A DNA stretch of 64,000 bases from the IMG/VR virus record IMGVR_UViG_3300010244_000098. One strand, given 5' to 3'. The number at the start of each line of letters is the position of its first letter. Position 1 is the stretch's first letter. The position numbers and the translations under genes are program-made. Below are positions 7,064-53,062 of this stretch, piece by piece. The notes below the pieces were generated by a model. That model did no database searches. It was not told where the DNA came from and saw nothing but the letters and a program-made list of their open reading frames with translations. The DNA is from a virus.

Positions 7064-7150
7064 ACTCTTTCTTCTCTTGATGTAATGCACGGCCTCTCCG
7101 GCCGTGTCCTTTCCTGGTGAAGAAAAGAGGCAGAAAGGAATGGATTATTT

Positions 7151-11243: not shown

Positions 11244-11296
11244 TCCCCTTCTGATAAACTATAGAATGAATAACTACGATGAAAAGGAAGATTGCT

Positions 11297-20083: not shown

Positions 20084-22042
20084 TTATACATTTAATGTTT
20101 CACGGATGCCATCCTGTAATCGTTTTGTTTGCTGACGAACATCTCCAATAAATTGATTGGCTTGATCCATGGTGTCTATCGAATCCAACTCATGTTGCCA
20201 ATCAGCCGTTTGATCCATGTTGATCCACGATTCATCCAACATGTAATCAACGATGCTTATCAGATCAGGATTGATTCGCAATGCTTTTTTGGATGTAACA
20301 ATGCCTTTTTTGTCCAGCATAACCGAAATTGTTTTATCTCTTGTGGAACTTGTTCCTTCGTTGCGTTGTTTTAATTTACTCAACAAACTAGACTCCGTTA
20401 ATAAACTTGGTTGTTTTGCCGGAACTTCTGTTACGTCATAGCTGACACGTTGTTTTCCGTACTCTGGAACGTCATCGGATTTTTGAATATCGCCGTTAAG
20501 CAGTCGCCACCCCTGCTCTTTCACCTGTGTATACGTCTGCTCGAATAAAAAGGTTTCCTGATACGGAAATGCTCGGGCGTGATGCTTAACCGATTTAGTA
20601 TCTGTTAAAAACAGTGTCATAGTTTGATACAAGTCCACCAGGTATAAAGCCATTTCTGCTTCACTCAACCCGTCTAGGATTTTCTGAGTCACCGATGTCT
20701 CCTCGTTAGGAACCAACGCAAAGTGAGGAACAACTTTCGTATCGTCAACCCATTTTTTATTGGCTTTACGGTCAATATGGAACCCAACTTTGGCTGATCC
20801 ATCTGTGACCTTTTGTGCATTTCGTTGAATCTCAGATTGAATCAATTGAACCACAATATCCTGTTGGACATATTGTTTTAAGTTATTGAACCCTTCGTTT
20901 CCTATGTACTGACTATCTGATCTTGGGTATGAAACGATTTTATGTATTTCGTAGTCATTTTGTAACGCTTGGTTCCAATCTGCCCCGGAGACATTGGTTC
21001 GCTTATCAACAGCGACTAATAATTCTGAACGAGAGAACAATTTCGGAGGGAGCGAGCTATTCTCTTTTGTTTCTCCCTGAACATCAAGAGCGGTCGGAAG
21101 GTCATTGTTTTGAATAAACGCATGGGCTTTTTCCTTCGTGTCGAACAGTAAAGCGTCCGTTCCTTTGAGCTTCACGCCATTTTCGGTGACTAAATCCACA
21201 CGGTATTTAGAACTGGGTACAAATTCATCGTGGGCTCTTTCAGCACGGCGTACATGCCCTAATATTGTATTCTTCAACCGTCCCCAAACACCGTTGACGG
21301 ACGAATTTATATCCCCAATTTGCTGAGAGACTAAACTACCGAGAAGACTGTAGGTCATACCGTACTCATAATCCGCAACAGCACGAGCATAACCTTTAGG
21401 CTGTAACCCCAAATAAAAGTTTCCTAACGAGTCCCCCGGGTCCATCTTGTCATATCTCTGCAGAGTCTTTTGAAACATTGATTGAATCGATTTTTTATCC
21501 ATACTGGCCGGCAATACACGGTAAAGTTGGTCTTTTGTAAGGTCTTTTTCTTTCAACATGACGTGACGGAAGTTTTGGAAAATCATTTCCCCTTCAGCGT
21601 CTCCATCTGTTCCCACAACGACTCTTTTAGCTCGTCGTGCTAATTTCTTAAGGTTGTTTGCTATGAACGTATGATTCTTTGTCCGCGTCTCATATTTAAT
21701 ACCGCGTGGTTGATTTGTATCCAGTTGGACAGGATAAACGTCCAACATGTCTTTATCTGATTTCCATCCGGAACGAACAACCATACCCCAGTCGTCTGTT
21801 TCCTCTCCTCCTTTGCGGTCATAGCGATCGCTTTGTTTATTCGGAGGAGACATTTCAAATAAGTGACCCTGAGCACGAGTAATAAGGACAGTTCCGCCTA
21901 AAATTGAGCTGAGTTGATGTCCGCCGTACCCGCCATTAACCGTGCCTCCTGTTGGTTTTCCTTTATCGAACAATGCCTCGGCATAACTTTGTGCTTGTGT
22001 TTCTTTTTCTGCAATAATTAACCAATCAATATCTTTTGGCAT
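20084..22042 (-). CDS. topB: Type IA DNA topoisomerase (TopB/Topo III-like)
   Basis: TOPRIM motifs WLIIAEK, AQGHL, VVGTDGDAEGE; active-site IVSYPRSDSQY; HFALVP; EGTSSTRDKTI. Start moved to ATG 22042 (AAAGGAAGGA RBS). Confidence 0.88.
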   Translation of the reverse strand: MPKDIDWLIIAEKETQAQSYAEALFDKGKPTGGTVNGGYGGHQLSSILGGTVLITRAQGHLFEMSPPNKQSDRYDRKGGEETDDWGMVVRSGWKSDKDMLDVYPVQLDTNQPRGIKYETRTKNHTFIANNLKKLARRAKRVVVGTDGDAEGEMIFQNFRHVMLKEKDLTKDQLYRVLPASMDKKSIQSMFQKTLQRYDKMDPGDSLGNFYLGLQPKGYARAVADYEYGMTYSLLGSLVSQQIGDINSSVNGVWGRLKNTILGHVRRAERAHDEFVPSSKYRVDLVTENGVKLKGTDALLFDTKEKAHAFIQNNDLPTALDVQGETKENSSLPPKLFSRSELLVAVDKRTNVSGADWNQALQNDYEIHKIVSYPRSDSQYIGNEGFNNLKQYVQQDIVVQLIQSEIQRNAQKVTDGSAKVGFHIDRKANKKWVDDTKVVPHFALVPNEETSVTQKILDGLSEAEMALYLVDLYQTMTLFLTDTKSVKHHARAFPYQETFLFEQTYTQVKEQGWRLLNGDIQKSDDVPEYGKQRVSYDVTEVPAKQPSLLTESSLLSKLKQRNEGTSSTRDKTISVMLDKKGIVTSKKALRINPDLISIVDYMLDESWINMDQTADWQHELDSIDTMDQANQFIGDVRQQTKRLQDGIRETLNV

Positions 22043-22145
22043 AATTGTCCAATCCTTCCTTTCTTTCTTCGATTTTTTCACTCTATGTAAATACGATATG
22101 GAAGCTGAGAACCTAGATGAAAGGTGTACCCTTTCGGGTTGCTTT

Positions 22146-22529
22146 TCACCAGATTGTTTCCTCATTCCATTGAGGATTCTTTATCTGTTCACTTCCATGT
22201 GTCTGCCACCCTAGTTCTTTCAGTTCCTGTTCAGAACAATTTGACTCTATCGCATCAAGGACTTGCTCCACAAAAAAAGCGGACTTGGCTATAACGCCAA
22301 CCCCGCCCTGCTCTGTAATATGAGCTAGATGCTTCTTCTGCAAGAAAGAAATTGTTGAACGGCCCTTGCCGGGTTGTTTGTTTTCAATAAATAATGGAAA
22401 CCCCCGGTAACATGCAATAATATCTGGAACACCACTGGGATTATGTTGGGCAGAATAGTTTTTATACCCCCATGCTCCGCGCTCTTTCAAAAGAGCCAGC
22501 ACGGCATTATCCACTTGTTTCTCTCTCAT
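22146..22529 (-). CDS. VRR-NUC (PD-(D/E)XK) nuclease, Holliday-junction resolvase-like
   Basis: MREKQV...SGVPDIIACYRG..LFIENKQPG...LQKKHL...GG pattern. Confidence 0.85.
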   Translation of the reverse strand: MREKQVDNAVLALLKERGAWGYKNYSAQHNPSGVPDIIACYRGFPLFIENKQPGKGRSTISFLQKKHLAHITEQGGVGVIAKSAFFVEQVLDAIESNCSEQELKELGWQTHGSEQIKNPQWNEETIW

Positions 22530-26577: not shown

Positions 26578-26619
26578 AGTTTAACACAGGGTTTTTTACT
26601 CCTATGGAATTTTTCACAA
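26578..26619 (-). promoter_or_regulatory. Promoter with extended -10 and the conserved 21-bp upstream box
   Basis: Minus strand: TTGTGAAAAATTCCATAGGAG (26599-26619), 11 nt, GTGtTAAACT (-10 at 26578-26583). Confidence 0.6.
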
Positions 26620-26621
26620 CA

Positions 26622-26652
26622 GAAAAGGACAGTGGAAGCCCACTGCCCTTGT
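26622..26652 (-). terminator. Terminator after the RNAP gene
   Basis: AAGG-A-CAGTGG-aagc-CCACTG-C-CCTT hairpin with a T-run on the minus strand. Confidence 0.6.
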
Positions 26653-26661
26653 TCATCCTTA

Positions 26662-29600
26662 TTAGGTATAACTATACGACAAATCTCCAAAATCCATATC
26701 ATTCCCTTGGTCTTGTTGTTTTGTCTTATTGACCGCGTCTTTAGAGTAAGATTCGTTTGCACGAACCGCCTCTTTCAACATTTCGTGGTCGTAGGTCTCC
26801 TCATTGGGGGATTGTTCGTTTGTCGGAACACCCTGACCTTTTTGGAACTGCTTTAAGAAATCACGGTTGCTTTCATTCAAATCGCCTCGGTCGTTGGCTT
26901 TATACACCTGACCTCCTACGACTTTTTCTTCCGGTTGATGTTGACCGGCTAATTCTTTCATTTTCTCTTGTTTCTCCTTGATGAATGTTTTTTGCGCCTC
27001 ATATTGTTCCTTCGCTTGACCAAAATCACGGTCCAAATGTTTATGCACGTTCTTATAATCAACGTGATAAGGTTGAGAGTATTTTGTCTCCGTCACTTGT
27101 TTTGGATAAGCTGGATTCATTTCGTTCCACTCTTTGATTTTTTTCATGCCGTTTGCCCCATGTTTAGCCAAAATATCCAGAGTGTCGGAATTTTCAAAAG
27201 CATTTCGCTGGTGATTTCTCATCAATCCGGCGTTTTCTCTCGGAGAGTCCTCTGGCTCACGAAACGCTAATTGATAATAATCGACTTCTAAATCGGATAC
27301 GCTTAGTCCTGCGTCACTAAAAATAGATTTCATCCCTAAACGATACACACTCTCGCTATCGATAGGGGTATAATCATCTCCTTGTTTCAGATTTGATTTC
27401 CAATCGATTCTTTCCTCGTCGGCATAGAATTGTTTCATTTTTTCTGGATCATCCGAATAGAAATTCGGATAACGATCTGTCACCACGCCGTGATTGATGT
27501 CTGCATAAATAGATCCTTTGGCCGACCCTTTCGCATCCTCATTATACGTATTCGCTAACATATGGTCCATTTTACGAGCTAAAGCAACATCTGTTCCATT
27601 TGCCGCCTCCTCGAATGGACCGGGAGCACGGCCTGTTTGTACGTCGCCCACCCGTTTTGCTGTCTCCTCCGGTGTCTTTCCGAACATTTCTGAAGAAAAC
27701 TCAACCCATACAGGTTTGGACTCATCTGATTGTTGAACATCCTCTTTGTGTCCTTCGAATAATTTAGGCGATTCCTTCAAGAAACGTAACGCTGCCGGCA
27801 CGTCATTGGGGCTGTGTTTGATCTGCAGAATAGACTGAGACGCTGTTTCTGTCACATCCATCCCAACAGCCGCACCGGGAATGCGTCGACGTCCGCGGTA
27901 AAAATCATAATCCGCTAATACGTCCGTTACCTTCAATGTTTGAGCCCCGCTTCGTCCGATTTCGTCAACTTTTGTTTTCTGTGCTGTACGAACGGAGTTG
28001 ATATTATTCGGCGTCACACCATTTTTCAAATAAGGAGCGTTCCGTTCCTGAATGTCCGGTTCTTTTCCTTTCGCTCCGTCTTTAGCCATCGCGTATTGAG
28101 ACTCTAACAACGTATTTTCGTTTTGAATATCTACATACCGACTTGGATAATTATGACTATTTGTAGCCGTTACCTCAGTTAATTCTGATACTTTCGGGAA
28201 CGTATAGTCATCAATAACGTTTCGGTACGCTTCGTCATAAATAGCATTCCCTTGCTCAAGAATATCCCGATCCTCGTCAGACAACAATTCTGGACGAATG
28301 GCTTTATTCTCAACAATATTGTCAAAACGTTCTACATCGAAATCCTCATATTGAGATACAACATCGAATTGTTCATCAACCTGTCGCCATGTTTGTTCTT
28401 CGATATACTGAATGTAATCGTTCATGACGTCCTTGGGTTTGTTATCTTTGAAATAAGACGGGTCTTCCTGCTCTTTTCGTCCAGCCCATGATACTTGTTG
28501 ACGGAAGCCTTGTTCGCTGTCATCGTTAATCCATTCTTTCATGTAATCAACATTATCCATCCCTACATTGAGAATGGCTAATTCATTTCGTTTATCCATC
28601 ATGTTGTAGCGAATGTTTAATTTTTTGTCCCATTCCTGTTGAACTTCTTCGTCATCGATATAGGCAACTCCGAACGTATCGCCGTCAAAGTCAGCCCCCA
28701 TTGTGGCTGTCATCATTGGGTTGATGCTTACTCCAGTTAAACGTTCGTCAACACGATAGTCCATCGCAAAAACCGAACCATCATGGAGTACAGGGTCACG
28801 CCAAACCATGAGTTTGTCGCCTTCCGCCTCTTTTTTCGTCTGCCAATTTCCCCGGGCAGCTTCGTGGATTTTTGAAATGTTTCCAGTCTCCACTGCCTGT
28901 TCCCAGGATTCTTTGTCGATAGGTTCCAATACGCCGGCATTGATACCCATTGCCGGTGAAATACCCACTTTATCAAGTTCAAGAGACGTGTCGTTCGTTA
29001 GGATTGCTGTTGCCGAGTTCCGCATTTCTTTAGATAAAATTTTACGACGTGTGAACGACTGCTTGTTGCTTTTTCCATCAACACCAAACTGGTCTTTTTC
29101 AACACTGTTTTGATATTTGTTGACTTCTGTATCCAGCAATCGGGTTAGACGAGTGTAATCTTTTAAATTTTCTGATAAAGCCGTAGCCATAACTTCTCGA
29201 CTTTCATCACCTTTTACAGCATTGATCTCGTCCTTCATTTTTTCAGAAAATGGATAATTCGCTTTTTCTTTCATAAATTGATCATCGCCGGATTCATACA
29301 ATTGCTTCAAGTCATCTTCTGTGAGTTCAGGGTTCCCCATTCGCTCTTTAAAATCGTCCAGCCCTTGTTCATAAGTTAAAAGGTACTCCATTTGAAGATC
29401 TTCGACCTGTGAACCAAAATCAGCGATTCGATTTAACGACATTGTATAATCGTGTTCAACAAATTCTCCGTCGAATGATTTGGTTTCCCGACGCAAACGC
29501 TCTGCTAGGATGGGCATATAATTTGTTTGAACAGGACGAGGACTGTTGTCGTCTTTATAGGCCTTATGATTGATAGGCAGCTGCATATAAGACGCTTCTT

Positions 29601-32600
29601 CAGGCAGTCCGTATTCGGCAATATCTCTTGAAGATATCACTAGGAAGTCTTTGTCTCCATTTGGTGATTCAAACCGTTCAACCGACCCGTCTTCCTGCTC
29701 TCGTTCTTCGATATTCATGCCGTAACGTCCTTGACGCAACACGTTATCTTCGCCTGTTGTATATCCCAGAACATTTTGATAATGCAATAAATCTGCATGT
29801 TTTTTCTCGCTGTTGCCTAGAATATAACCGATTGTTTTGTCGGCTCCGTGGGACTGCAGAGCTAAACTTTGTTGGTAAGAAAACGTCCGATGACGCCCTA
29901 GATCCTGTAACTCATACAAATTCGTTTTATGTTCCGCGTCCATGTTCGTTACGATGACGGAAATTTCTCCGGCGTAGCCTCTAGTCTGTCCTTTGTTTGG
30001 ACCGTTCTGATAGGTGATAGCACCTTTACGGTCTTCGTTGGAATGGATCAACTCTTGTCCAAGCCCCATGTTCGCACGGCTTGTCATCCCGTAAGGGGAC
30101 TGAATCATATCCAATGGATACCCACTGTCTTCTGCGTCTTTAAATGCTTGTTCTGCGTCCTCATTATACCCGGGGTGGTTCGGATCCAGGCCTGAGATGT
30201 ACCCGATCACTCCTTTGTTGGAATGGTTATCGGCCAGTTTGTCCCCGATACGCAGTCCATGTTCTTCAGCAAACTCATCAGAAACAACAATAGAGTCCTC
30301 AAACGTTAGTCCACCGGCTGTCATCAACCCCACTCGTACACGGTCCCGTTCTTCTTCTTTGTCGAGTGGACCGCCGATGATGTCTTTGGCTACTTCACTC
30401 ATTTTCGATGTCATCAACACCCGATCCGGCGAGTCATATTGAGCATAATTACCGCGCATTCGCCGCACCATTGGACTGGCGTACATATAACGATGATTGC
30501 GTGTGCCTTCGTATAACTCTCGAAATGCTTCGTTTTGAGCATCTCGATTTCCTTGCTCACGGGCTGTCGTCCACCGGTTGAACGTTTCGGCTAAGTCGGG
30601 GCGTTCAAGGTTAGGGATCTCATCCAGAATTTTCTTCAATGGTTTTGATGCCTGTTGGCCTGTTACCCAGCGCTCTAACGGTGTTTCTTCTCCGTTGTCG
30701 CGGTGGAGCATACCCAATTGACCTGTTCGTTCAAAATTGAAACCTTTTTCTCCTTTATTTTCTTCAATGAAGTCCATAAATTCTTCCGTAAAATACCCGC
30801 GAAGTCCTAACGTTGCGCCGTCACTGGACGCTTGTGCGTCATACACGCCTTCAAGCCCTCTCAGTGGCAGACGAATAGATTGAGGTTGTCCGTACTGGTC
30901 TCTATCTTCTTTTGATTGTGGACGGGAATCTTCGCGAAGCTCTCCGTCACGATTCAGGTAGCTTTTATCAATTAAGAACGAATTACGCAAATGTTCAACA
31001 ACACCGGGACGGTCCATTCTTTCTCGGTCGATACGGCCCATGTCTTCATATGCTTTATTCATTCTTGTTACGTCATACATTTGATCACGGTCGGCTGACG
31101 CGTCGTTTCGTCGAGTCAACACCTGCGACTTCACAGAAGCATGGATAGCGGAGTGCATTTTTTGATCCAATCCTGTGATTTTCATGCGTTCCAGTATATG
31201 TGATTTATTCTGTGTTGGTGGGACAAACGCTACGTTGTAGTTATCAACACGCAAGTCTTCACGGCCATTTCCTCGGCGCAGGTCGAGAACGCCTTCCTTA
31301 CGGAGAAGGTTTCCGTCTCCGTCATATTCATTCTCTCTAGCCGGGAAAAAGAATTGACCCATTTTGAATTGAACCGGTTCAGATTCAATCACCTCGTTCG
31401 TCTGAGAATCAAACGCCGTGCCCCGGTCTCCGCCCCAGTGGAGCACGCCATCGTTGTCAAAACGGCCCTGGAAATGGCGAATACCCGCTTCTTCTGCCGC
31501 ACGTTTAGTCGTACGTAACACTTTTTCATAATCTTCCTTGTTCGATGTTTTTTCCAGATCCATCCAGCCGGCTAAAGGCTGGTCGGCATCGTCTGTTAAA
31601 CCTACCATCATGTTGGCGATTCGTTCACGAGAGCCTTGTTGCACCTCTACTTCTTCCTCTGCGGTGTGATCCAGGCTATCTTCGTCGTATCCTTCGTTTT
31701 GTGCCTCTGAGTTATATGATCTGTCTTCATTATGTAAAGGTTCACGTTTTCCATACATCAATTCATTACGGATATCGTCGATCGACTGACCCTGATTCAA
31801 CCGTTCCTCCGTATCATCATGCACCAGCCGCATAATTGTACCCATGTCTGAATGACGCATAACAACATCCATATCGATATCGTCCATGTTGATCGATCCA
31901 TCTTCATGGCGCACATCGTCTAAATCAATCAAACTGTCCACTTCGTTTTCATCACTGGACAATTGAGCTTTTTCGTACGCCTGCTCAACAAGTTCTGTCA
32001 TGGTCTGCGGTTGTAACAACTGGTCAACCTCTTGACGTTTGTAAGATTGAGGGTGACGTGTTCGTGAAGGCGTATTATGACCAATTGTAAACGATACATC
32101 ATAGCGGATAGAATTTCCTGAAGCGGATCTTTTTAGATCGGAATCTTTATTCATTCCTACGCTTGTAGCGTCAGACAAGGTTTTTGCTTTATGTACATCG
32201 AAGTGTTGATATTTCGATAAATCGGTCCCTTCCATGAAATATTCAACAGCAGGAATCAGAGACGCCGTTGACTCCCTTCCATCGCTGGCTCTGGCCAACA
32301 AATGACTGTTACGGAACACTGTGTTTCCATTCACATAAAATTTTCCTAAATCTTTTTCTTTCGGTGTAAATCCTAAAACATCAATCTGATTATTTCCAGA
32401 TTGAACAGTGAAACGTAAATCTTCTTGATTTACCCCGGTTACATGGACGTTCTTCATTGTCCATCCTTTTTCGTCCAGTTTTTGCTTCAAGCTTGTTCCG
32501 AAAGCGATCATACGCGGAGACAAGACGCGTTTATCCGATAAACCCCCTTTTTGCAACTCTCTAATTTGAGCAGGTGTCAGATTTAAATTAGCCTGGCTTA

Positions 32601-32964
32601 ATACGCCGTGAGGGTCTCGATTGATTTTTGGGTTATGACCCATTGAAAAGGCGCTGTTTACATCAATAAGCTCCTTTAATGAATAATAATTCACGTTGTC
32701 TTCAAAACGATTATTAGCCATTTTAGTATAAAATTCTCCATCATACCCTCGACCGTTGTCGTTTCGTAACTCACTCATCGCTTGGTTGGACGCCTGTTTC
32801 TTATCGTCTCCCGATAACCGTTGAGCGAAAGGAACATTTTGATGTGTTACATCGTACTTTAACCCGCTCGGGCGTCTGCGATTCGGCAGACTGTCCAGAT
32901 ATGTATCGTAATCTTGTTGATTTTCAATTTTAGGTTTTCCATTTTTCGTTAATTGTAAATCCAT
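26662..32964 (-). CDS. Single-polypeptide two-barrel (double-psi beta-barrel) DNA-dependent RNA polymerase, beta/beta' fusion
   Basis: Beta-like: SSDGATLGL, DSPDRVLMTSKM, TFEDSIVVS (E889/D890), GDKLADNHSNKG (K909/K917), SPYGMTSRANMG, RTFSYQQSLALQSHGA. Beta'-like: ILSKEMRNSATAIL, VWRDPVLH, INPMMTATMGADFDGD (D1425/D1427/D1429), bridge-helix-like VRTAQKTKVDEIGRSGAQTLKVTDV, trigger-loop-like AVGMDVTETASQSILQIKH (H1717). Confidence 0.93.
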   Translation of the reverse strand: MDLQLTKNGKPKIENQQDYDTYLDSLPNRRRPSGLKYDVTHQNVPFAQRLSGDDKKQASNQAMSELRNDNGRGYDGEFYTKMANNRFEDNVNYYSLKELIDVNSAFSMGHNPKINRDPHGVLSQANLNLTPAQIRELQKGGLSDKRVLSPRMIAFGTSLKQKLDEKGWTMKNVHVTGVNQEDLRFTVQSGNNQIDVLGFTPKEKDLGKFYVNGNTVFRNSHLLARASDGRESTASLIPAVEYFMEGTDLSKYQHFDVHKAKTLSDATSVGMNKDSDLKRSASGNSIRYDVSFTIGHNTPSRTRHPQSYKRQEVDQLLQPQTMTELVEQAYEKAQLSSDENEVDSLIDLDDVRHEDGSINMDDIDMDVVMRHSDMGTIMRLVHDDTEERLNQGQSIDDIRNELMYGKREPLHNEDRSYNSEAQNEGYDEDSLDHTAEEEVEVQQGSRERIANMMVGLTDDADQPLAGWMDLEKTSNKEDYEKVLRTTKRAAEEAGIRHFQGRFDNDGVLHWGGDRGTAFDSQTNEVIESEPVQFKMGQFFFPARENEYDGDGNLLRKEGVLDLRRGNGREDLRVDNYNVAFVPPTQNKSHILERMKITGLDQKMHSAIHASVKSQVLTRRNDASADRDQMYDVTRMNKAYEDMGRIDRERMDRPGVVEHLRNSFLIDKSYLNRDGELREDSRPQSKEDRDQYGQPQSIRLPLRGLEGVYDAQASSDGATLGLRGYFTEEFMDFIEENKGEKGFNFERTGQLGMLHRDNGEETPLERWVTGQQASKPLKKILDEIPNLERPDLAETFNRWTTAREQGNRDAQNEAFRELYEGTRNHRYMYASPMVRRMRGNYAQYDSPDRVLMTSKMSEVAKDIIGGPLDKEEERDRVRVGLMTAGGLTFEDSIVVSDEFAEEHGLRIGDKLADNHSNKGVIGYISGLDPNHPGYNEDAEQAFKDAEDSGYPLDMIQSPYGMTSRANMGLGQELIHSNEDRKGAITYQNGPNKGQTRGYAGEISVIVTNMDAEHKTNLYELQDLGRHRTFSYQQSLALQSHGADKTIGYILGNSEKKHADLLHYQNVLGYTTGEDNVLRQGRYGMNIEEREQEDGSVERFESPNGDKDFLVISSRDIAEYGLPEEASYMQLPINHKAYKDDNSPRPVQTNYMPILAERLRRETKSFDGEFVEHDYTMSLNRIADFGSQVEDLQMEYLLTYEQGLDDFKERMGNPELTEDDLKQLYESGDDQFMKEKANYPFSEKMKDEINAVKGDESREVMATALSENLKDYTRLTRLLDTEVNKYQNSVEKDQFGVDGKSNKQSFTRRKILSKEMRNSATAILTNDTSLELDKVGISPAMGINAGVLEPIDKESWEQAVETGNISKIHEAARGNWQTKKEAEGDKLMVWRDPVLHDGSVFAMDYRVDERLTGVSINPMMTATMGADFDGDTFGVAYIDDEEVQQEWDKKLNIRYNMMDKRNELAILNVGMDNVDYMKEWINDDSEQGFRQQVSWAGRKEQEDPSYFKDNKPKDVMNDYIQYIEEQTWRQVDEQFDVVSQYEDFDVERFDNIVENKAIRPELLSDEDRDILEQGNAIYDEAYRNVIDDYTFPKVSELTEVTATNSHNYPSRYVDIQNENTLLESQYAMAKDGAKGKEPDIQERNAPYLKNGVTPNNINSVRTAQKTKVDEIGRSGAQTLKVTDVLADYDFYRGRRRIPGAAVGMDVTETASQSILQIKHSPNDVPAALRFLKESPKLFEGHKEDVQQSDESKPVWVEFSSEMFGKTPEETAKRVGDVQTGRAPGPFEEAANGTDVALARKMDHMLANTYNEDAKGSAKGSIYADINHGVVTDRYPNFYSDDPEKMKQFYADEERIDWKSNLKQGDDYTPIDSESVYRLGMKSIFSDAGLSVSDLEVDYYQLAFREPEDSPRENAGLMRNHQRNAFENSDTLDILAKHGANGMKKIKEWNEMNPAYPKQVTETKYSQPYHVDYKNVHKHLDRDFGQAKEQYEAQKTFIKEKQEKMKELAGQHQPEEKVVGGQVYKANDRGDLNESNRDFLKQFQKGQGVPTNEQSPNEETYDHEMLKEAVRANESYSKDAVNKTKQQDQGNDMDFGDLSYSYT

Positions 32965-32998: not shown

Positions 32999-33040
32999 AG
33001 TGTAACACGGAGGCCTGTGCTCCTATGGAATTTTTCACAA
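32999..33040 (-). promoter_or_regulatory. RNAP-gene promoter with extended -10 and the conserved 21-bp upstream box
   Basis: Minus strand: TTGTGAAAAATTCCATAGGAG (33020-33040), 11 nt, GTGtTACACT (-10 at 32999-33004); same box and spacing as at 26599-26619. Confidence 0.65.
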
Positions 33041-33067
33041 AAAAACAGAGGGTCGTCCCCTCTGTTT
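33041..33067 (-). terminator. Intrinsic terminator after the VirB4-like gene
   Basis: Perfect AAACAGAGGG-tcgtc-CCCTCTGTTT stem with a T-run on the minus strand. Confidence 0.8.
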
Positions 33068-33086: not shown

Positions 33087-34979
33087 TTAAATAACTAAGT
33101 CCCATAAAAAGACGACATTTTTTGTGTTCCTTCGTAGATAATAATACTTTGGATTCCCGTCTGTAATCTCTTTGACAAGCTGAGACGGCAATTCTCCCTG
33201 GACAGCACGGCTGTAATTGGAAATGTCCACGCTGGACATGGACCCTGTAATGACAGTATCTGCTGATTCAAAAAACGGGCTGTCAATCATTTTCTTCACG
33301 TTATTGAAGCTGATGACCAATTTGACACTCATGTCCTGCAGGAAGTTTCTTTGATTATTGATGTATTCCCAAACCTCGGGTGTAATCGACTCTGCTCCAT
33401 AAATATGAATCACGTCGTGTTCTTTGATCTCCCCAAGCATATAAGTAAAGATGTTGATAAATTGAGCCATCAAAACGTCAACCCCGTTTTGTCTCAGTTT
33501 CGCAAAGGGAAAAATCTTACGTGGCTTATTGCGAAGTTCCGAATCATCAAACGAGGTATGGGTGTCGAATAAATCGCCATAAGACGTCTGCATGACCGAT
33601 ACCATATTCACGAGTCGTTTGAACCCCGCTGCCAACTCTTTGTTCTGTCCGACAGTCGCTGTTCCTTCTGCATGGATACGGTACTGCGATGATAAATAAG
33701 GAATTAATTTGTTTAGACGAGGCACTTCCGTATAATCATCTAAACCAACCATACGCAGACGGTCCCGGTTCTCTTGCGGGTTTTCCGACCACATGCCTTG
33801 TTGAATATAAAAGCCGTCTAAGGCTTCATCAAAAAGCATTAAATCATCTTTGGTCATATCCTCGTTCAACTGTTGAACCATCAGTTTCAACTTGTTTTTA
33901 AGAATAGCGTACGCCGACAATTCATTCTCTACGTCACCAAACGCTTGAAGGGGGTTGATCATCCCTTTATCCATTTGAACTTTAGCTGTCGAGTTTTTCA
34001 AATCCGCTCCAATCTGAGTCGGATCTTCGTTGTTCAATACAAGTTCATAGACATTTCGTCCTTTGAGCAGTTCGTTTTGAGCGAAGAAAGTCTGCCATGC
34101 TGCTTGAGCACTGAAATCGTATGGTTGTTTCCGACCAGCCATGATTGCTTTTCCGTTCGCCCCAATCAACGTCACGTCTCCGGCTGTATCCGTATCGTAC
34201 ATGACAGGGGTTTGATTCACGTCCCCGACGGTCATTCCAATATAATCCCCGTTGGGGTCACGCCAGCCTTTTCCTACAAATGGATAAAACCCGGCGAACT
34301 CCACGGACGTGTATCCGTCGTGGTGGCCCAACTGCGATGTAGCAGGGCCTAACATGTTTCTAAAGTCATCCTGTTGTTGGCCGATGTTCTGTGTCAATCG
34401 AGCTGAACCAAAACGTGTTTGGTAACGGCGGGATAATTCGGTAATCGTCTCAGTCAATTCCTCTTTCGTTGGGGCAAACAATAAAATTTTCGATGTAACG
34501 TCCAGATAAGACGCGCCTCCGGCAATTTCGCTTGTTGACACCCGATGATCCACGGCTCGTTTCCGGCTACGGTCAGCCTCTAACGCCTGACGCGCCATTT
34601 TCGCTTCCTCATGAGCTGTCTCAGATACTTCTGAAGCTACGGCCGAATGAGACTCCACCCAGCTCTCAGGGCGTGTCTGAAAGGCTACAATGAGCCTTGC
34701 TGTAACAGACCTGTTTTTCGTTACCGGAATCAATCGACTTCCCCACATTGGAGGCAATTGATTCACTGCACCAGCATCTGCTATAAATGTCAGAATAGCC
34801 CCGTAACTCAATCCGGTTTGGAAATAGTCTGAATAAAATTTTAAATTTCCGAAAGGAGCGATTTCTTGAAGAAAGGAATCAGATAACTTCCCTTTCGGTT
34901 TTTTCTTTTGTTTCTCTTTTGATTTTCCCTGCGTTTGATCCTTTCCTTTTCCCAATCGTTGTTTGATGCCTTCTAACAC
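33087..34979 (-). CDS. VirB4/TraE-like conjugation ATPase homolog with degenerate Walker motifs
   Basis: VirB4-like layout (FYPFVGKGWRDPNGDYIG..NQTPVMYD, INPLQ, LFDTHTSFD, IFPFAKL) and location among transfer genes. The Walker A position reads LIGANGKAIMAGRK and the Walker B position VIHIYGAES. Confidence 0.65.
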   Translation of the reverse strand: MLEGIKQRLGKGKDQTQGKSKEKQKKKPKGKLSDSFLQEIAPFGNLKFYSDYFQTGLSYGAILTFIADAGAVNQLPPMWGSRLIPVTKNRSVTARLIVAFQTRPESWVESHSAVASEVSETAHEEAKMARQALEADRSRKRAVDHRVSTSEIAGGASYLDVTSKILLFAPTKEELTETITELSRRYQTRFGSARLTQNIGQQQDDFRNMLGPATSQLGHHDGYTSVEFAGFYPFVGKGWRDPNGDYIGMTVGDVNQTPVMYDTDTAGDVTLIGANGKAIMAGRKQPYDFSAQAAWQTFFAQNELLKGRNVYELVLNNEDPTQIGADLKNSTAKVQMDKGMINPLQAFGDVENELSAYAILKNKLKLMVQQLNEDMTKDDLMLFDEALDGFYIQQGMWSENPQENRDRLRMVGLDDYTEVPRLNKLIPYLSSQYRIHAEGTATVGQNKELAAGFKRLVNMVSVMQTSYGDLFDTHTSFDDSELRNKPRKIFPFAKLRQNGVDVLMAQFINIFTYMLGEIKEHDVIHIYGAESITPEVWEYINNQRNFLQDMSVKLVISFNNVKKMIDSPFFESADTVITGSMSSVDISNYSRAVQGELPSQLVKEITDGNPKYYYLRRNTKNVVFLWDLVI

Positions 34980-45003: not shown

Positions 45004-45873
45004 TTACGGGGCGTAAATGCCTCGCAATAATTCCAGTGTCCGTTTGAAATCAGCACGGCGAACGGATTTAGCCATCCCGTTGATGACCTGCTGTTCAAAC
45101 CACTGGCATTGTTCACTCAGTGCCGTGCGGTCAGTCGTTGTGATTACAACGTATTGGGAAACCGTACGGAACCGTTCGTTGTCCGCCACTTGTTCACGGA
45201 TCACTCTTTCTTTCCTTGAAGCCAACGCGCGAAGATCTGTTAATGATTGTCCTGAAGTCCGTTCCCAGGCTCCCTGGACCTGCTCACCCAAATCTAAGGA
45301 CGTATGCTGTGTTGGAATACTCACAGACACGTTCGGTGGAAGTAATGACAACCAGCGCTCAAACGCGTCGATGACATAGTTTTTTTCATCTTCGAACAAC
45401 ATGTTGGAGGCGTGACCGTCTACTTCATAAGCACGGCCAACCCAACCGTTGACAAAGGTAATGATTCCTTGATTATCAATTTTTCGAATTTGAAGTACAT
45501 CACTGACTTCTGCCACATCGGCATCTCCTCTCGTACTGACTATCCGACCATGAGTATCTAACCAATACCCGATCGTCGGCCAGAGCATTTTATACCCTTC
45601 ATCCCCGTTCTCTTGAGGAATGATCAACAAAGCAACAAACAGTTCCCAACCGATTAGCATAATAGCTAATCCTAGCCAACTGCCTTCTGAAATCCCAGTG
45701 TTCATATACATGAACATCGGAACAACAAGCCCCAGAAGTGCCAGCATAATCACAGTGGAAATCTTAATCGGCCGTTTGAAAGGCCCCTGTCCCTTCTTGC
45801 CGGTTAAAATAACGGGCGCTTGTAAGCGAGAGACGTTTAAAGAATGCGGGATACGATATGATTTTTTAGCCAC
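45004..45873 (-). CDS. PrgI/VirB3-like conjugation membrane protein
   Basis: Two TM helices near the N-terminus followed by a soluble domain; first gene of the Clp2/VirB6-like block. Family call is tentative. Confidence 0.5.
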   Translation of the reverse strand: MAKKSYRIPHSLNVSRLQAPVILTGKKGQGPFKRPIKISTVIMLALLGLVVPMFMYMNTGISEGSWLGLAIMLIGWELFVALLIIPQENGDEGYKMLWPTIGYWLDTHGRIVSTRGDADVAEVSDVLQIRKIDNQGIITFVNGWVGRAYEVDGHASNMLFEDEKNYVIDAFERWLSLLPPNVSVSIPTQHTSLDLGEQVQGAWERTSGQSLTDLRALASRKERVIREQVADNERFRTVSQYVVITTTDRTALSEQCQWFEQQVINGMAKSVRRADFKRTLELLRGIYAP

Positions 45874-50308: not shown

Positions 50309-53062
50309 CTAATCCCCGAGTTCTTGTTCTGCACCCGGGTCATTGTAGCTCATTTCATAATACGTTGAACTATATCTCGGAAGCAAGTCCCTCTCGCGCT
50401 CTTTAAAGAGTTGACGAACATACGCTCTGTCCCGTTCTCCTTCGGTTATCTTCACTTCCGGTTCAGGCACGGCACGGATCAGACGGGCTTCCCGGGCGCG
50501 CTGGAGTTCTTCGTTTTCTTCTTCCTCCTCCAACTCTTGTTGTCGAAGGATTTCGTATTGACGATTTAATCGGATCAATTCGTCTGTTAAATTAAATGGT
50601 TCGTCTAAGTCGTGCTCTCTCGTCCATTCTACTGTTTCCTCTTTTTCACGTTCCACAATCGGAGGGGATATCTCCAAAAACTCCCGGTTCATGTCGACAG
50701 CGTCGTCGTGAGCAAGCGTATATGAAGCGTGTTCTTTTATGTAATCATCCTCGTGACGACGCAGGGGTCTGGGCAGTTCTCCGCCTTCTTCAGCAACAGC
50801 GATAAAATCCAAAGCTTCACTGACCCCGTTGGCTTCATTTTGAAAATAAGTGTACTCCGGATAGTCTTCGGTATTCTGCCCGGACCGGTCCAGATAAGAT
50901 AAGGCATTTCGAAAAGCTTTCTGCCTCGATTCGTGCATGGATCGATTCGCCTCTAAAACTCGAGGCGATACCCGTCTTGACTGATCCCGGTCTAAATCAT
51001 AAATTGTCCGGGCAATATCGTACCCTTTCACTTCGTTGAAGCGTTCTTTATCAACAGCAGGAGTTTCTTTCTGCTCCCGAATCTGCATTTGGGATTCCAA
51101 TCCGTCGTAAACACGACTCATCGCCCGAACTTTTCCGTCGTACTTCACTAGTTGATCTAACGACTTGTCTCCAACGCCTTCACTCTCCAATCGTTCTATA
51201 ACCGGAGCGGACAGCCGTTCAGAGACCGACAGATCTCGATTGGTTGCATAGGTCTTAGGCTCCCGCGGAATGGCTCTGACACTGTGTTTCACACGGTTAT
51301 GCACCCGGTCTACCCATTCTTCTTTGTCTAATCCGTCCCCCGTAGGATATTTCTCACGGCGGTAATGAAGATACGGTTTCGGTTGTTGATCCATTAAGTA
51401 TTGATATTTATCCCGGACTCCGCCGTGATAGGTTGATTCCGTATCGTATAAATCCCGCATAGCTCCGGATTCTTTAACAACCTCGCCTTTATCAGCCAAC
51501 ATGTCATAATCATCACGGAGGGACGTATAGTAATCCGTTTTCTCTTTTGCTTCTTTCCACCGTTTGGGATAATCCCGAATACGTTTTTCCATTTGAAGCA
51601 AACCGTTGGACTCTGACTTTTCCTGACCTAAATCGTCGGCGATGTGTTCTTTTAGAGATTCATCATCCAAAAGGGCCAGCTGTAAGCCTTTTGGCGTCAA
51701 CGATCCTTGTACAACCCGTCGCTCCCGGTTGTCCATAGATGATTCCTGCTCTTTTTCAAAAGCCTTTTTATCCCCTACAACACGTAAGGGTTTCATCGAT
51801 GTATACAGTCCGTTGACCAATTCTTCTTTCAAACGATCGTTAACAACGTCTCGAAGACGGTCTCGTTCTTTTTCGTAGCTTTCTGACTCCGTGTCCGGAG
51901 CTTTTGTTTCAACATAGGTATCCACGGCTTCTTCAAACGAATCATACCCCACGACATTTCGGTGCGTATCGAGCATGTGGTCAACGTATTGACCGGATAA
52001 GCGGTTCGCTTCTTTCATATCTTGACGGTTGCTTTTAAACCGCCAGTTCTTTTGCTGACTCCGCAGATCTTTGTCATACGCCGCTCCGTCGTATTCGGGA
52101 TTTTTCTCTCCTTTAGGCAGAGCATCATAGATCCGGACCAACTGCTGGCTGAGAGCCGTATGTTCAAGAAACAACTGCGTACTGTTCTGTTTCACCAGCT
52201 GATGGTGGGCGGATAAATTATTCGTGAACGGTTTAGCCCCTTTTGTTCGTGTCAATTCCTGGTCCACCCCGTCTTTGAACGACCGCATAACGCGCTGATG
52301 TAGTTTCCCGCGCTCTCCCTGGTGTTCGTGGTTGGAAGGAGTATCTTCAACAAGGAATAAATCATTATATGTATGTGCCGGGTTCTTTTTTGACTTGTAC
52401 GGTTGTTTCTTAGACCCACGCACCATGCGTTCCTCAGGGACATTGTTCATGTCCGTGGTTTCAATCAGCGTTAAATGGACGTGAACGTTAGCCGTATCCA
52501 CCTGGATTGCTGCCGTCCATTCCGGTTCTACGAAATGAGCCTTTTCGGTCATTCGTTCCATGCCTTTTGTAACTGCACGGCGCAGTTTCAATTGGTCCAC
52601 TTGGCCATGATACTTTCCTTCGTCCTGGTTATTTTCTACGTCGTCCATATCTTCAGGAACAACCTTTTTGCGTTTTAAATAATCATGCGAAAAACTGACC
52701 ACCGGCGTTATCAATGTATGCCCGTCTTCCAGAGCCCGTTCTGTTTTTTGTACAGAATCCGTAAACTGGTCCCGAGTGTACACCAATCCTTGACTGCCAA
52801 ACAGCCGTGCCGATTGATCGGTTACTTTCTGGTCTTCATGGTATAAGGTTTGTTCGTCGCCCAATTCCTCAATCACTTGTTCCGATTGGGCATTCCGTTG
52901 GTCATATGCTTCTTCATACGCCCGTAACGTCTGTTGGGGCGTGTAAGGCGCTAATTCTTCCGTGGCGTCCAACCTGGATGTGTATCGGCGTATGTAGTTT
53001 CCCGGTGTTCCTCCGGCTTTCGCTCCGAACTGACTGACCATCACGATATCGCTGCTCGCCAT
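50309..53062 (-). CDS. Conjugative relaxase, MobL/MobP2-like
   Basis: N-terminal TPGNYIRRYTSRLDATE (candidate catalytic Tyr), TPVVSFSHDYL, and HUH motif WTAAIQVDTANVHVHLTL; long helical C-terminal region. Confidence 0.8.
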   Translation of the reverse strand: MASSDIVMVSQFGAKAGGTPGNYIRRYTSRLDATEELAPYTPQQTLRAYEEAYDQRNAQSEQVIEELGDEQTLYHEDQKVTDQSARLFGSQGLVYTRDQFTDSVQKTERALEDGHTLITPVVSFSHDYLKRKKVVPEDMDDVENNQDEGKYHGQVDQLKLRRAVTKGMERMTEKAHFVEPEWTAAIQVDTANVHVHLTLIETTDMNNVPEERMVRGSKKQPYKSKKNPAHTYNDLFLVEDTPSNHEHQGERGKLHQRVMRSFKDGVDQELTRTKGAKPFTNNLSAHHQLVKQNSTQLFLEHTALSQQLVRIYDALPKGEKNPEYDGAAYDKDLRSQQKNWRFKSNRQDMKEANRLSGQYVDHMLDTHRNVVGYDSFEEAVDTYVETKAPDTESESYEKERDRLRDVVNDRLKEELVNGLYTSMKPLRVVGDKKAFEKEQESSMDNRERRVVQGSLTPKGLQLALLDDESLKEHIADDLGQEKSESNGLLQMEKRIRDYPKRWKEAKEKTDYYTSLRDDYDMLADKGEVVKESGAMRDLYDTESTYHGGVRDKYQYLMDQQPKPYLHYRREKYPTGDGLDKEEWVDRVHNRVKHSVRAIPREPKTYATNRDLSVSERLSAPVIERLESEGVGDKSLDQLVKYDGKVRAMSRVYDGLESQMQIREQKETPAVDKERFNEVKGYDIARTIYDLDRDQSRRVSPRVLEANRSMHESRQKAFRNALSYLDRSGQNTEDYPEYTYFQNEANGVSEALDFIAVAEEGGELPRPLRRHEDDYIKEHASYTLAHDDAVDMNREFLEISPPIVEREKEETVEWTREHDLDEPFNLTDELIRLNRQYEILRQQELEEEEENEELQRAREARLIRAVPEPEVKITEGERDRAYVRQLFKERERDLLPRYSSTYYEMSYNDPGAEQELGD

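What the first reader, a model, noticed from the sequence alone, without database searches (positions are those of the whole stretch)
26662..32964. Conjugative element encodes its own single-chain multisubunit-type RNA polymerase with a complete catalytic apparatus
Seen: one 2100-aa ORF carries, in beta-then-beta' order, counterparts of the key catalytic motifs of cellular RNAP. These are SSDGATLGL (~TPEGPNIGL), DSPDRVLMTSKM (~DDANRALMGANM), ED 889-890 (~E. coli beta E813/D814), GDKLADNHSNKG with K909/K917 (~K1065/K1073), SRANMG (~SRMNIG) and RTFSYQQSLALQSHGA (~QRFGEMEVWALEAYGA). They continue with WRDPVLH (~NRAPTLH), ADFDGD 1424-1429 at nt 28678-28695, a bridge-helix-like segment, and a trigger loop ending in H1717 (~beta' H936). 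Established: single-polypeptide two-barrel RNAPs exist, e.g. YonO of phage SPbeta and the predicted NCgl1702-type proteins of mobile elements, so the class is not new. Inference: here it lies among conjugation genes rather than phage genes, so it may run an element-specific transcription programme, act in the recipient after transfer, or act as a primase. I know of no experimental characterisation in a conjugative context.
Basis: partly seen in the sequence, partly recalled or inferred. Interest (0 to 1): 0.95.

Follow-up and report, generated by a model that had tools for sequence, protein, structure and literature searches.

The report
Fused RNA polymerase in conjugation module
A mobile DNA element from a plant metagenome carries one 2100-residue gene that fuses miniature versions of the two catalytic subunits of cellular RNA polymerase; its relatives almost always sit beside DNA-transfer genes, the enzyme family is already known from sequence analysis, and nobody has tested what it does.

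Summary
ORF 26662-32964 (-) encodes 2100 aa, and every motif sits at the stated coordinates.

- **Conservation:** in 120 relatives, all eight universal two-barrel RNAP residues are invariant.
- **Structure:** AlphaFold models (pLDDT 85-90) match beta (Z 14.6) and beta' (Z 15.6), including the bridge helix and a trigger loop with His.
- **What is missing:** the enzyme lacks the beta flap and has no cysteine, so no zinc sites.
- **Family:** it is not YonO-like (hhalign probability 0.1). [quoted passage not shown]
- **Context:** in 75 of 76 informative genome loci the gene lies directly downstream of a type IV coupling protein. Staphylococcus plasmids share MobL, a Clp-like ATPase, a VirB4-like gene, the RNAP and topoisomerase IA with this window. 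The window itself has no recognisable coupling protein.

The function is inferred. It is most likely sigma-independent RNA synthesis tied to transfer or establishment: priming or early transcription on the transferred strand. The main rival is an element-specific transcriptase in the donor.

This scan has noted the same family before on other DNA (NCgl1702 itself).

The parts
26662..32964 (-). Gene for the 2100-aa fused beta-beta' RNA polymerase (P0001). It contains no cysteine.
31543..32964 (-). N-terminal region, aa 1-474. It is specific to this subfamily, is predicted to fold confidently, and has no known homologue. Residues 144-246 weakly resemble the T4 MotA C-terminal DNA-binding domain (Z 5.9; a lead only).
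29755..31542 (-). Beta-like module, aa 475-1070. It aligns structurally to E. coli beta 35-1297 in about 580 residues. It holds the beta double-psi barrel with E889/D890, K909 and K917. The flap (SBHM insert) is absent: 18 residues separate D890 from K909, against about 250 in E. coli.
30211..30303 (-). Beta active-site motifs: FEDS 888-891 (nt 30292-30303) and GDKLADNHSNKG 907-918 (nt 30211-30246).
27754..29754 (-). Beta'-like module, aa 1071-1737. It aligns structurally to E. coli beta' 17-1146. It includes the lid-region motif LPILAERLR, clamp helices, the second barrel, a bridge helix and trigger helices.
28678..28803 (-). Beta' active-site motifs: WRDPVLH 1388-1394 (nt 28783-28803) and ADFDGD 1424-1429 (nt 28678-28695).
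27814..28077 (-). GAKGK 1630-1634 (equivalent to the beta' region F motif GARGS), the bridge-helix segment, and the trigger-loop tip LQIKH 1713-1717 (H1717 maps to beta' H936).
26665..27753 (-). C-terminal tail, aa 1738-2100. It is charged, its last ~150 aa are poorly conserved, and it has no known homologue.
33020..33061 (-). Intrinsic terminator of the upstream gene (33047-33061), then the 21-bp box TTGTGAAAAATTCCATAGGAG (33020-33040). A TGTTACACT extended -10-like element follows 12 nt downstream (32999-33007, just outside this range), ahead of the RNAP start codon.
26599..26650 (-). Terminator after the RNAP gene (26625-26650), then an identical copy of the 21-bp box (26599-26619) ahead of the next gene. 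The RNAP gene is therefore its own transcription unit.
33087..34979 (-). 630-aa gene directly upstream of the RNAP gene. It is VirB4-like by language-model features only. It is 31% identical (E 3e-96) to the gene directly upstream of the RNAP homologue on S. aureus plasmid NZ_CP150776.
43087..44979 (-). Clp-like double-AAA+ ATPase. Its homologue is found upstream of the coupling protein in 53 of 80 related loci.
45004..45873 (-). 289-aa protein with two hydrophobic (predicted transmembrane) segments. It is homologous (29% identity, E 1e-25) to the gene that follows the coupling protein on the S. aureus plasmid.
20084..22165 (-). Type IA topoisomerase, downstream in the same strand block. It is 36% identical (E 3e-110) to the topoisomerase downstream of the RNAP homologue on the S. 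aureus plasmid.
50309..53062 (-). MobL-family relaxase (Pfam E 7e-24). It sits at the head of the same strand block.

Best explanation
SHOWN. The gene encodes an intact, miniaturised fusion of the beta and beta' subunits of cellular RNA polymerase. It has two double-psi barrels forming one active site, a bridge helix and a trigger loop with His. It has no sigma-binding flap and no zinc sites.

SHOWN. It belongs to a large, sparsely distributed family of 1700-2500-aa proteins. In genomes, the family gene sits directly downstream of a VirD4/TraG-type coupling protein, inside conjugative transfer modules of Actinomycetota and Bacillota.

INFERRED. It is a sigma-independent, DNA-templated RNA polymerase dedicated to the element and working in step with DNA transfer. 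My preferred mechanism is that it makes RNA on the transferred single strand. That RNA would be primers for complementary-strand synthesis, the first transcripts in the recipient, or both. The enzyme may first be exported through the transfer channel, as the Sog and TraC primases are, and as phages N4 and crAss deliver virion RNA polymerases.

Confidence by layer:
- active two-barrel RNAP: about 0.9
- fixed part of a conjugation module: about 0.85
- acts on the transferred strand in establishment: about 0.4
For: **Enzyme**
- Pfam finds Rpb2_6 and Rpb1_2.
- The family profile hits beta' at E 2e-26. The alignment runs through the lid, [14 protein letters not shown], region F and the bridge helix.
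- hhalign against beta gives probability 94.5%.
- AF2 models have pLDDT 89.8 and 85.1, with pTM 0.83 and 0.85.
- VIA gives Z 15.6 to beta' 17-1146 and Z 14.6 to beta 35-1297.
- In an unbiased search of 48,161 chains, the top nine hits are all second-largest RNAP subunits (Z 11-12.8). The next hit drops to 6.5.
- R848, D890, D908, K909, K917, R963, R1389, P1391, D1425, D1427, G1428 and D1429 are invariant in 120 relatives.
- Position 889 is acidic in 116/120, and H1717 is His in 104/120.

**Context**
- The coupling protein is upstream on the same strand in all 75 loci that have both genes. Four of the five loci without one are cut short by contig ends.
- Pfam finds T4SS-DNA_transf, TraG-D_C and TrwB_AAD_bind in 4 of 5 sampled loci.
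- The complete S. aureus plasmid has MobL, a Clp-AAA, a coupling protein, a VirB4-like gene, the RNAP, topoisomerase IA, a lysozyme, SSB and RepA. It has no Pfam-recognisable primase.
- The window shares five of these genes with that plasmid.

**Establishment kit (by analogy)**
- The element also encodes a UvrD-like helicase, RarA and topoisomerase IA.
- Recipient UvrD aids single- to double-strand conversion in conjugation (PMC10085688, abstract).
- Transferred primases are an established precedent (PMC5512222).
Against: - No biochemical or expression data exist. The only run holding this DNA is the source metagenome, and no RNA run holds it.
- The window has no recognisable coupling protein, even when searched with a 74-sequence family HMM at full sensitivity.
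- The VirB4 assignment rests on language-model features only.
- The conserved lid-region motif and trigger loop are features of a transcript-releasing transcriptase rather than a primase.
- The gene has a sigma-A-like extended -10 and its own terminators. It could therefore simply be expressed and used in the donor.
- Nothing shows export. The absence of cysteine is element-wide (0.16% Cys in 17,329 other residues), so it is not a secretion signature.
- Adjacency to a coupling protein does not prove that the enzyme is a transfer substrate.
Confidence: 0.42

Rival explanations
1. Donor-side element transcriptase. The enzyme transcribes double-stranded element DNA in the donor, for example the long transfer operon or genes behind the shared 21-bp box. 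It would work independently of host sigma factors, as YonO does for SPbeta late genes and as the Orf6 RNAP does for yeast killer plasmids.
For: - The enzyme has a complete msRNAP-type core. This includes the lid-region motif (R1158 kept in 118/120), clamp helices, a bridge helix and a trigger loop, all of which serve processive transcription with RNA release.
- YonO and killer-plasmid RNAPs are precedents (PMC5467207, PMC2919709).
- An exact 21-bp box is repeated before the RNAP gene and the next operon. Two copies are found where none is expected.
- A stand-alone alpha-CTD fused to thymidylate kinase lies on the same element.
Against: - A bacterial plasmid shares a compartment with host RNAP, so it has no obvious need for its own.
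- No sigma-like or other specificity factor was found, and the flap is absent.
- The boxed promoters carry a normal extended -10, which suggests host RNAP reads them.
- The near-invariant adjacency to the coupling protein is not explained by a general transcription role.
Confidence: 0.3
2. Vegetative replication primase. The enzyme makes primers for plasmid replication in every host cell, independently of transfer.
For: - No Pfam-recognisable primase was found on the complete S. aureus plasmid or in the window.
- Replication-type genes (RarA, UvrD-like helicase, topoisomerase) lie nearby.
Against: - The gene is linked to the coupling protein and the VirB4-like gene, not to the rep/par region. 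On the S. aureus plasmid, RepA and ParA lie about 25-30 kb away.
- Many family members are chromosomal, probably in integrated elements that replicate passively.
- A 2100-aa processive-type RNAP is an unusual solution for priming.
Confidence: 0.1
3. A different activity. The enzyme could be RNA-templated, QDE-1-like RNA synthesis, or it could work in conflict with host defences or rival elements rather than in element gene expression or priming.
For: - Two-barrel enzymes include RNA-dependent RNAPs, and QDE-1 also uses single-stranded DNA (established knowledge; PMC2919709).
- The element carries many conflict-type genes: MoxR-VWA-Clp, a NADAR-domain protein, and others.
Against: - Sequence and fold are far closer to DNA-dependent beta/beta' than to the YonO/RdRP type.
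- The fifth carboxylate, which RdRP-type enzymes lack, is present (E889; acidic in 116/120; PMC2919709).
Confidence: 0.08
4. The element is a phage or phage-plasmid, and the enzyme is a phage RNAP. The conjugation-like genes would then be incidental.
For: - It is a large metagenomic contig of 148-222 kb.
- Giant phages encode split beta/beta'-like RNAPs. The PhiKZ and AR9 non-virion RNAPs match the barrel region at Z 12.5-12.8.
Against: - tblastn against 50,697 phage records found nothing.
- None of ten neighbouring proteins hit PHROGs.
- A MobL relaxase is present.
- The closest named relatives are plasmids with coupling proteins.
Confidence: 0.03

Closest known systems
[quoted passage not shown]
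   Same: - A single chain of about 2100 aa in beta-then-beta' order (NCgl1702 is 2169 aa).
- The two barrels, switch 2 and funnel are conserved.
- It lacks the SBHM flap insert.
- It is carried by mobile elements, and the family is mostly actinobacterial.
   Different: - I could not fetch the NCgl1702 sequence, so direct homology to it was not tested here.
- This member comes from a low-GC, Bacillota-like element in a plant metagenome.
- It is only 22-29% identical to the actinobacterial members.
- It has a subfamily-specific N-terminal region of 474 aa.
Bacterial RNA polymerase beta and beta' (RpoB/RpoC), including the natural RpoB-RpoC fusions of Helicobacter
   Same: - The catalytic residues are the same.
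- The fold of both modules matches (Z 14.6 and 15.6).
- The bridge helix, the trigger loop with His and the lid-region motif are present.
- The subunit order is the same as in the Helicobacter fusion.
   Different: - The core is about 1260 aa, against about 2750 for the two subunits.
- It has no flap, no zinc-binding cysteines and no SI insertions.
- No alpha, omega or sigma partners are evident.
- It scores 1100 bits to its own family profile. Host RpoC and RpoB score 68-79 and about 30 bits to that profile.
YonO of Bacillus phage SPbeta (characterised single-chain two-barrel RNAP, PMC5467207)
   Same: - One polypeptide carries both barrels.
- It is encoded by a mobile element.
- It is presumed to be sigma-independent.
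   Different: - There is no detectable sequence relationship (hhalign probability 0.1).
- YonO has no homology to the trigger loop and lacks most msRNAP domains. This protein keeps them.
- YonO is 839 aa and sits among phage late genes.
Orf6 RNAP of yeast cytoplasmic killer plasmids (pGKL2) (PMC2919709, PMC6211774)
   Same: - It is a plasmid-borne Rpb2::Rpb1 (beta::beta') fusion with a reduced domain set.
   Different: - It is a eukaryotic cytoplasmic linear plasmid, which needs its own RNAP because it is shut out of the nucleus.
- It is much smaller and has no conjugation context.
- It keeps the SBHM insert, according to PMC7824862.
DNA-co-delivered polymerases: the Sog and TraC conjugative primases, the N4 virion RNAP, and crAss-like phage phi14:2 gp66
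   Same: - This is a functional analogy only. These are polymerases encoded next to or within transfer or packaging modules and delivered with the DNA to start priming or early transcription (PMC5512222).
- gp66 is also a two-barrel single chain of about 2200 aa.
   Different: - The primases and the N4 RNAP have unrelated folds.
- gp66 matches only the barrel, at Z 6.5.
- Delivery of this protein has not been shown.

Membership tests
Two-barrel (double-psi beta-barrel) RNA polymerase superfamily | Two DPBB domains forming one active site | tested here: met
   The AF2 models match both the beta and beta' barrels. Designed and Cdc48-type DPBB domains hit model residues ~770-920.
Two-barrel (double-psi beta-barrel) RNA polymerase superfamily | The eight universal residues: DxDxD, one Asp and two Lys in the beta barrel, and R and P in the beta' barrel (PMC2919709) | tested here: met
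   D1425/D1427/D1429, D890, K909, K917, R1389 and P1391 are each invariant in 120 of 120 relatives.
Multisubunit-type (beta/beta'-like) catalytic core, as opposed to the YonO/RdRP type | A fifth carboxylate next to the beta Asp (Rpb2 E836 / beta E813) | tested here: met
   E889 aligns to beta E813. The position is D or E in 116 of 120 relatives.
Multisubunit-type (beta/beta'-like) catalytic core, as opposed to the YonO/RdRP type | A bridge helix and a trigger loop with catalytic His | tested here: met
   The profile aligns through region F and the bridge helix. The structure aligns to beta' residue 1146. H1717 maps to H936 and is His in 104/120.
Cellular bacterial RNAP beta/beta' proper | The SBHM flap inserted in the beta barrel (sigma region 4 docking) | tested here: not met
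   18 residues separate D890 from K909, against about 250 between beta D814 and K1065.
Cellular bacterial RNAP beta/beta' proper | Zinc-binding cysteine clusters in beta' | tested here: not met
   There are no cysteines in the 2100 residues.
YonO-like single-chain RNAPs | Detectable sequence homology to YonO | tested here: not met
   hhalign of the family profile against YonO gives probability 0.1. tblastn against phage records finds no match.
[quoted passage not shown] | A single chain of about 2000 aa in beta-then-beta' order, without the SBHM insert, on a mobile element | tested here: met
   The published descriptions are in PMC2919709 and PMC7824862.
[quoted passage not shown] | Direct sequence homology to NCgl1702 itself | not tested
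   The NCgl1702 sequence could not be fetched with these tools. An earlier scan note (e1-2842701) places NCgl1702 in conjugation clusters, which fits but is not a test.
Conjugative element (type IV secretion based) | Relaxase | tested here: met
   MobL matches at E 7e-24, and the NCBIfam MobP2 subfamily at 3e-17, for 50309-53062.
Conjugative element (type IV secretion based) | Type IV coupling protein (VirD4/TraG) | tested here: not met
   None was found in the 64-kb window by tblastn or by a 74-sequence HMM with filters off. One is present next to the RNAP in 75/76 informative relatives. The rest of the 148-222 kb contig was not searched.
Conjugative element (type IV secretion based) | VirB4-type ATPase and membrane channel proteins | tested here: inconclusive
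   The 630-aa neighbour resembles AAA_10, P-loop_TraG and CagE clusters by language-model features only, with no Pfam hit. Several proteins with multiple hydrophobic (predicted transmembrane) segments lie in the block.

The most novel reading that the evidence does not exclude
The enzyme is a substrate of the element's own transfer channel. It would enter the recipient with the single-stranded DNA and start RNA synthesis there, as primers, first transcripts or both. That would make it the conjugative counterpart of the virion RNA polymerases of N4 and crAss-like phages. It would also define a class of conjugative elements that bring their own multisubunit-type RNA polymerase.
Probability: 0.3. 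Interest if true: 0.9.

Novelty: new member of a known kind. Interest (0 to 1): 0.6.

Why it matters
How a conjugated single strand is primed and first expressed in a new host is still poorly understood, above all in Gram-positive bacteria.

A minimal RNA polymerase with no flap and no zinc sites is fixed next to the coupling protein in Actinomycetota. It is also found in staphylococcal and lactococcal plasmids. That makes it a concrete, testable candidate for the priming and first-expression step.

The enzyme is also one of the smallest natural versions of the cellular RNAP core that still keeps a bridge helix and trigger loop. This makes it useful for studying the minimal requirements of this enzyme class.

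The family is widespread in sequence data, with 347 clusters at 50% identity. No member has been purified or deleted.

Tried and rejected
- **YonO relationship.** Rejected: hhalign probability is 0.1.
- **Phage origin.** Rejected for now: no phage tblastn hits and no PHROGs hits.
- **Coupling protein in the window.** None found. The 1700-aa and 715-aa ORFs show no similarity to the Staphylococcus coupling protein. Neither tblastn nor the family HMM found one.
- **Zero cysteines as an export signature.** Rejected, because the whole element is cysteine-poor.
- **N-terminal (90-480) and C-terminal (1775-2100) regions.** No Pfam, PDB-profile or Atlas hits. The MotA-CTD-like match is too weak (Z 5.9) to use.
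- **715-aa neighbour.** The Atlas search gave nothing usable.
- **Near-identical DNA on plasmids.** None found.
- **Expression evidence.** Only the source plant-metagenome run holds the sequence, and no RNA run does.
- **Prevalence sampling.** None of 300 other Bacilli genomes and none of 300 other Actinomycetes genomes carry the family. It is therefore sparse, although a pattern scan found 86 species genomes with it.
- **Literature.** Iyer & Aravind 2012 and Iyer et al. 2003 are not held, so I could not check what they say about gene neighbourhoods. The 'YonO plus plasmid' hits in Clostridium perfringens papers were matches to the author name Yonogi.
- **No whole genome is held for the window**.

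Full report
**1. Observation.** The minus-strand ORF 26662-32964 is open for 2100 codons. Pfam finds RNA_pol_Rpb2_6 at residues 898-975 (E 5e-5, 23.0 bits, just under the 23.4 cut-off). It finds RNA_pol_Rpb1_2 at 1371-1443 (E 1.9e-6, above the cut-off). The order is beta then beta'.

Local alignments to E. coli RpoB and RpoC give these equivalences:

| This protein | E. coli equivalent |
|---|---|
| TFEDSIVVS, E889/D890 | beta NFEDSILVS, E813/D814 |
| GDK...NKG...SRANMG, K909/K917 | beta 1063-1110, K1065/K1073 |
| RDPVLH...ADFDGD, R1389/P1391 and D1425/1427/1429 | beta' 425-464, R425/P427 and D460/462/464 |
| GAKG 1630 | beta' GARG 729 |
| H1717 | beta' H936 |

A profile of the beta half aligns to E. 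coli beta with hhalign probability 94.5%.

**2. Family and conservation.** An exhaustive HMMER search of 1.84 billion cluster representatives found 347 clusters at E <= 1e-3 and 254 at E <= 1e-10. Nearly all are 1700-2500 aa.

In a 120-sequence alignment the invariant columns are R848, D890, D908, K909, K917, R963, P1130, R1389, P1391, D1425, D1427, G1428 and D1429. These include all eight residues that Ruprich-Robert and Thuriaux list as universal to two-barrel RNAPs (PMC2919709). Position 889 is Asp or Glu in 116/120. The trigger-loop His is kept in 104/120 and is Lys in 14. Conservation at this level argues for an active enzyme under purifying selection.

The family profile hits bacterial beta' at E 2e-26 and Rpb1 at 4e-22. 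The alignment runs from the lid motif through [37 protein letters not shown] and region F into the bridge helix. In three carrier genomes the same profile scores about 1100 bits on the family gene. It scores 68-79 bits on the host rpoC and about 30 bits on rpoB.

**3. Structure.** AlphaFold2 with family alignments gave two confident models:
- residues 680-1780, pLDDT 89.8 and pTM 0.83;
- residues 90-1075, pLDDT 85.1 and pTM 0.85.

VIA-align places P0001 1071-1737 on E. coli beta' 17-1146 (Z 15.6, 438 residues aligned, rmsd 4.6 Å). It places P0001 475-1054 on E. coli beta 35-1297 (Z 14.6, about 400-450 residues aligned).

In a search of 48,161 representative chains that does not rely on Foldseek, the top nine hits are all second-largest RNAP subunits (vaccinia, PhiKZ and AR9 non-virion RNAPs, Pol IV, Pol I, plastid, bacterial, ASFV, Pol III) at Z 11.1-12.8. 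The next hit drops to 6.5 (crAss phi14:2 gp66). Bare DPBB domains follow at about Z 5.

The protein is therefore a compressed beta (about 580 aa) joined directly to a compressed beta' (about 670 aa). It is flanked by a folded but unrecognisable N-terminal region (aa 1-474) and a charged C-terminal tail (aa 1738-2100). Neither flank has Pfam, PDB-profile or Atlas matches.

**4. What is missing.**
- Only 18 residues separate D890 from K909, against about 250 between beta D814 and K1065. The flap, which docks sigma region 4, is therefore absent.
- There is not one cysteine, so neither beta' zinc site exists.
- No sigma-like gene was seen in the window.

**5. Which family it belongs to.** It is not YonO-like. 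hhalign of the family profile against YonO gives probability 0.1, and tblastn against 50,697 phage records finds nothing. YonO has no homology to the trigger loop (PMC5467207), whereas this family keeps one.

It matches the published description of NCgl1702. That protein is a 2169-aa beta::beta' fusion with conserved barrels, switch 2 and funnel (PMC2919709). [quoted passage not shown] I could not fetch NCgl1702 to test direct homology.

**6. Context in the window.** The window is part of a JGI plant-metagenome contig of 148.5 kb, with a second copy on a 222-kb contig. The RNAP gene lies in a 35-kb minus-strand block, in this order:
1. a MobL relaxase (50309-53062, E 7e-24);
2. several small membrane proteins;
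3. a 289-aa protein with two predicted transmembrane segments;
4. a Clp-like AAA+ ATPase (43087-44979);
5. a 1700-aa protein with N-terminal transmembrane segments;
6. a 715-aa protein;
7. a ribbon-helix-helix protein;
8. a 630-aa VirB4-like protein (33087-34979);
9. the RNAP;
10. several small genes;
11. a type IA topoisomerase (20084-22165).

No phage structural genes were detected. No coupling protein is recognisable in the window, even with a 74-sequence HMM run with filters off. A 56-kb contig carrying the 59%-identical homologue P0005 has the same gene order.

The RNAP gene is bracketed by intrinsic terminators. It is preceded by an exact 21-bp box plus a TGTTACACT extended -10-like element. 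The same box recurs before the next gene downstream. Two copies are found where none is expected. The gene is thus its own transcription unit, probably read by host RNAP and co-regulated with the following operon.

**7. Context in relatives.** tblastn against plasmids found distant homologues (22-27% identity) on Staphylococcus, Lactococcus, Gordonia, Rhodococcus and Streptomyces plasmids.

On the complete 55.5-kb S. aureus plasmid NZ_CP150776 the gene order is:
- MobL, then a Clp-like AAA+ ATPase, then a 727-aa protein;
- a coupling protein, a 279-aa protein and a 708-aa protein;
- the RNAP;
- topoisomerase and a lysozyme.

RepA, ParA and SSB lie elsewhere on the plasmid. Five of these genes have homologues in the window:
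- the 279-aa gene (29% identity);
- the 708-aa gene (31%, E 3e-96 by BLASTP; 4e-85 by tblastn);
- the RNAP;
- the topoisomerase (36%, E 3e-110);
- the Clp-like ATPase.

On Gordonia pGKT2 the order is AAA+ ATPase, an 866-aa protein, the coupling protein and the RNAP, with RarA and SSB nearby.

A scan of one genome per species returned 80 loci. Most are from Actinomycetota, with a few from Bacillota and Bacteroidota. In all 75 loci that contain both genes, the coupling protein is upstream on the same strand and adjacent. Four of the five loci without one are cut off by contig ends. Pfam confirmed T4SS-DNA_transf, TraG-D_C and TrwB_AAD_bind in 4 of 5 sampled loci.

The family is sparse: none of 300 other Bacilli and none of 300 other Actinomycetes genomes sampled carry it.

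**8. Mechanism.** Two things are shown: an intact msRNAP-type catalytic core in one chain, and fixed membership of transfer modules that contain a coupling protein. The rest is inferred.

*Reading A, about 0.4.* I favour RNA synthesis tied to transfer and establishment, on the transferred single strand, as primers and/or first transcripts, possibly after export. Four points support this:
- The gene is tied to the coupling protein rather than to the rep/par or regulatory genes.
- The complete S. aureus plasmid has no Pfam-recognisable primase.
- The element carries other functions for converting single to double strand: a UvrD-like helicase, RarA and topoisomerase IA here, and SSB in relatives. 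Recipient UvrD is known to help this conversion (PMC10085688).
- Delivered polymerases are an established strategy. [quoted passage not shown]

*Reading B, about 0.3.* The enzyme could be a donor-side, sigma-independent transcriptase. The conserved lid-region motif, clamp helices and trigger loop suit processive transcription with RNA release, and YonO and the killer-plasmid RNAP are precedents.

No data here separate the two readings. No RNA run holds the sequence, and export is untested.

**9. Novelty.** The enzyme class has been known from computational work since 2003.

The tight link to the coupling protein is not in any paper I could search. The polyvalent-protein survey of conjugative elements lists only primases, and lists N4-type RNAPs only in phages. 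An earlier agent of this scan reached the same conclusion for NCgl1702 on other DNA. I could not read Iyer & Aravind 2012 to see whether it is already stated there.

No member of the family has been studied experimentally, as far as the held literature shows.

Noticed in passing
window 26599-26619 and 33020-33040 (-): An exact 21-bp box, TTGTGAAAAATTCCATAGGAG, occurs twice where none is expected. Each copy follows an intrinsic terminator and lies 12 nt before a TGTTA(C/A)ACT extended -10-like element. It is probably a shared operator or activator site that co-regulates the RNAP gene and the next operon. It sits too far upstream (30-nt spacer) to be a -35 element.
   Followed up: partly
window 11279-12211 (+): A thymidylate kinase is fused to an RNA polymerase alpha C-terminal domain (Pfam RNA_pol_A_CTD, E 1.5e-7). 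It lies on an element whose own RNAP has no alpha subunit.
   Followed up: no
whole window: The element's proteins are extremely cysteine-poor. There are 28 Cys in 17,329 residues outside the RNAP (0.16%). The RNAP, the topoisomerase, the relaxase and the 1700-aa protein have none.
   Followed up: partly
window 1496-10288 (+); also L075, L085, L081, L010, L084: Genes of the MoxR-VWA-Clp-UvrD operon in the window recur near the RNAP homologue in distant genomes. Clp1-like hits appear in 41 of 80 loci and UvrD-like hits in 13 of 80, both limited by the 10-kb flanks. MoxR and VWA hits appear in the Bifidobacteriaceae locus L075. These genes may form a second conserved module of these elements.
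   Followed up: partly
P0001 residues 144-246 (window about 32227-32535, -): An N-terminal subdomain of the RNAP model weakly resembles the double-wing DNA-binding C-terminal domain of T4 MotA (Z 5.9, rmsd 2.6 Å, 86 residues aligned). The score is too weak to trust, but the match would be interesting as a built-in promoter-recognition domain.
   Followed up: no
window 37912-43014 (-): A 1700-aa protein has at least five predicted transmembrane segments in its first 550 residues. The rest is a long acidic, repetitive, cysteine-free C-terminal part. It occupies the position that the coupling protein holds in related loci, but shows no similarity to one.
   Followed up: partly
L002/L087 (S. aureus plasmid NZ_CP150776) and the other Staphylococcus plasmids: Nine of the 13 matching plasmids are typed 'non-mobilizable' by MOB-suite. 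NZ_CP150776 is one of them, yet it carries a MobL relaxase, a coupling protein, a VirB4-like gene, a lysozyme and the RNAP. The typing probably understates their mobility.
   Followed up: partly
window 60686-62512 (-): A 608-aa protein has a NADAR domain (E 3e-10). It lies next to a canonical ClpB (56812-59451).
   Followed up: no
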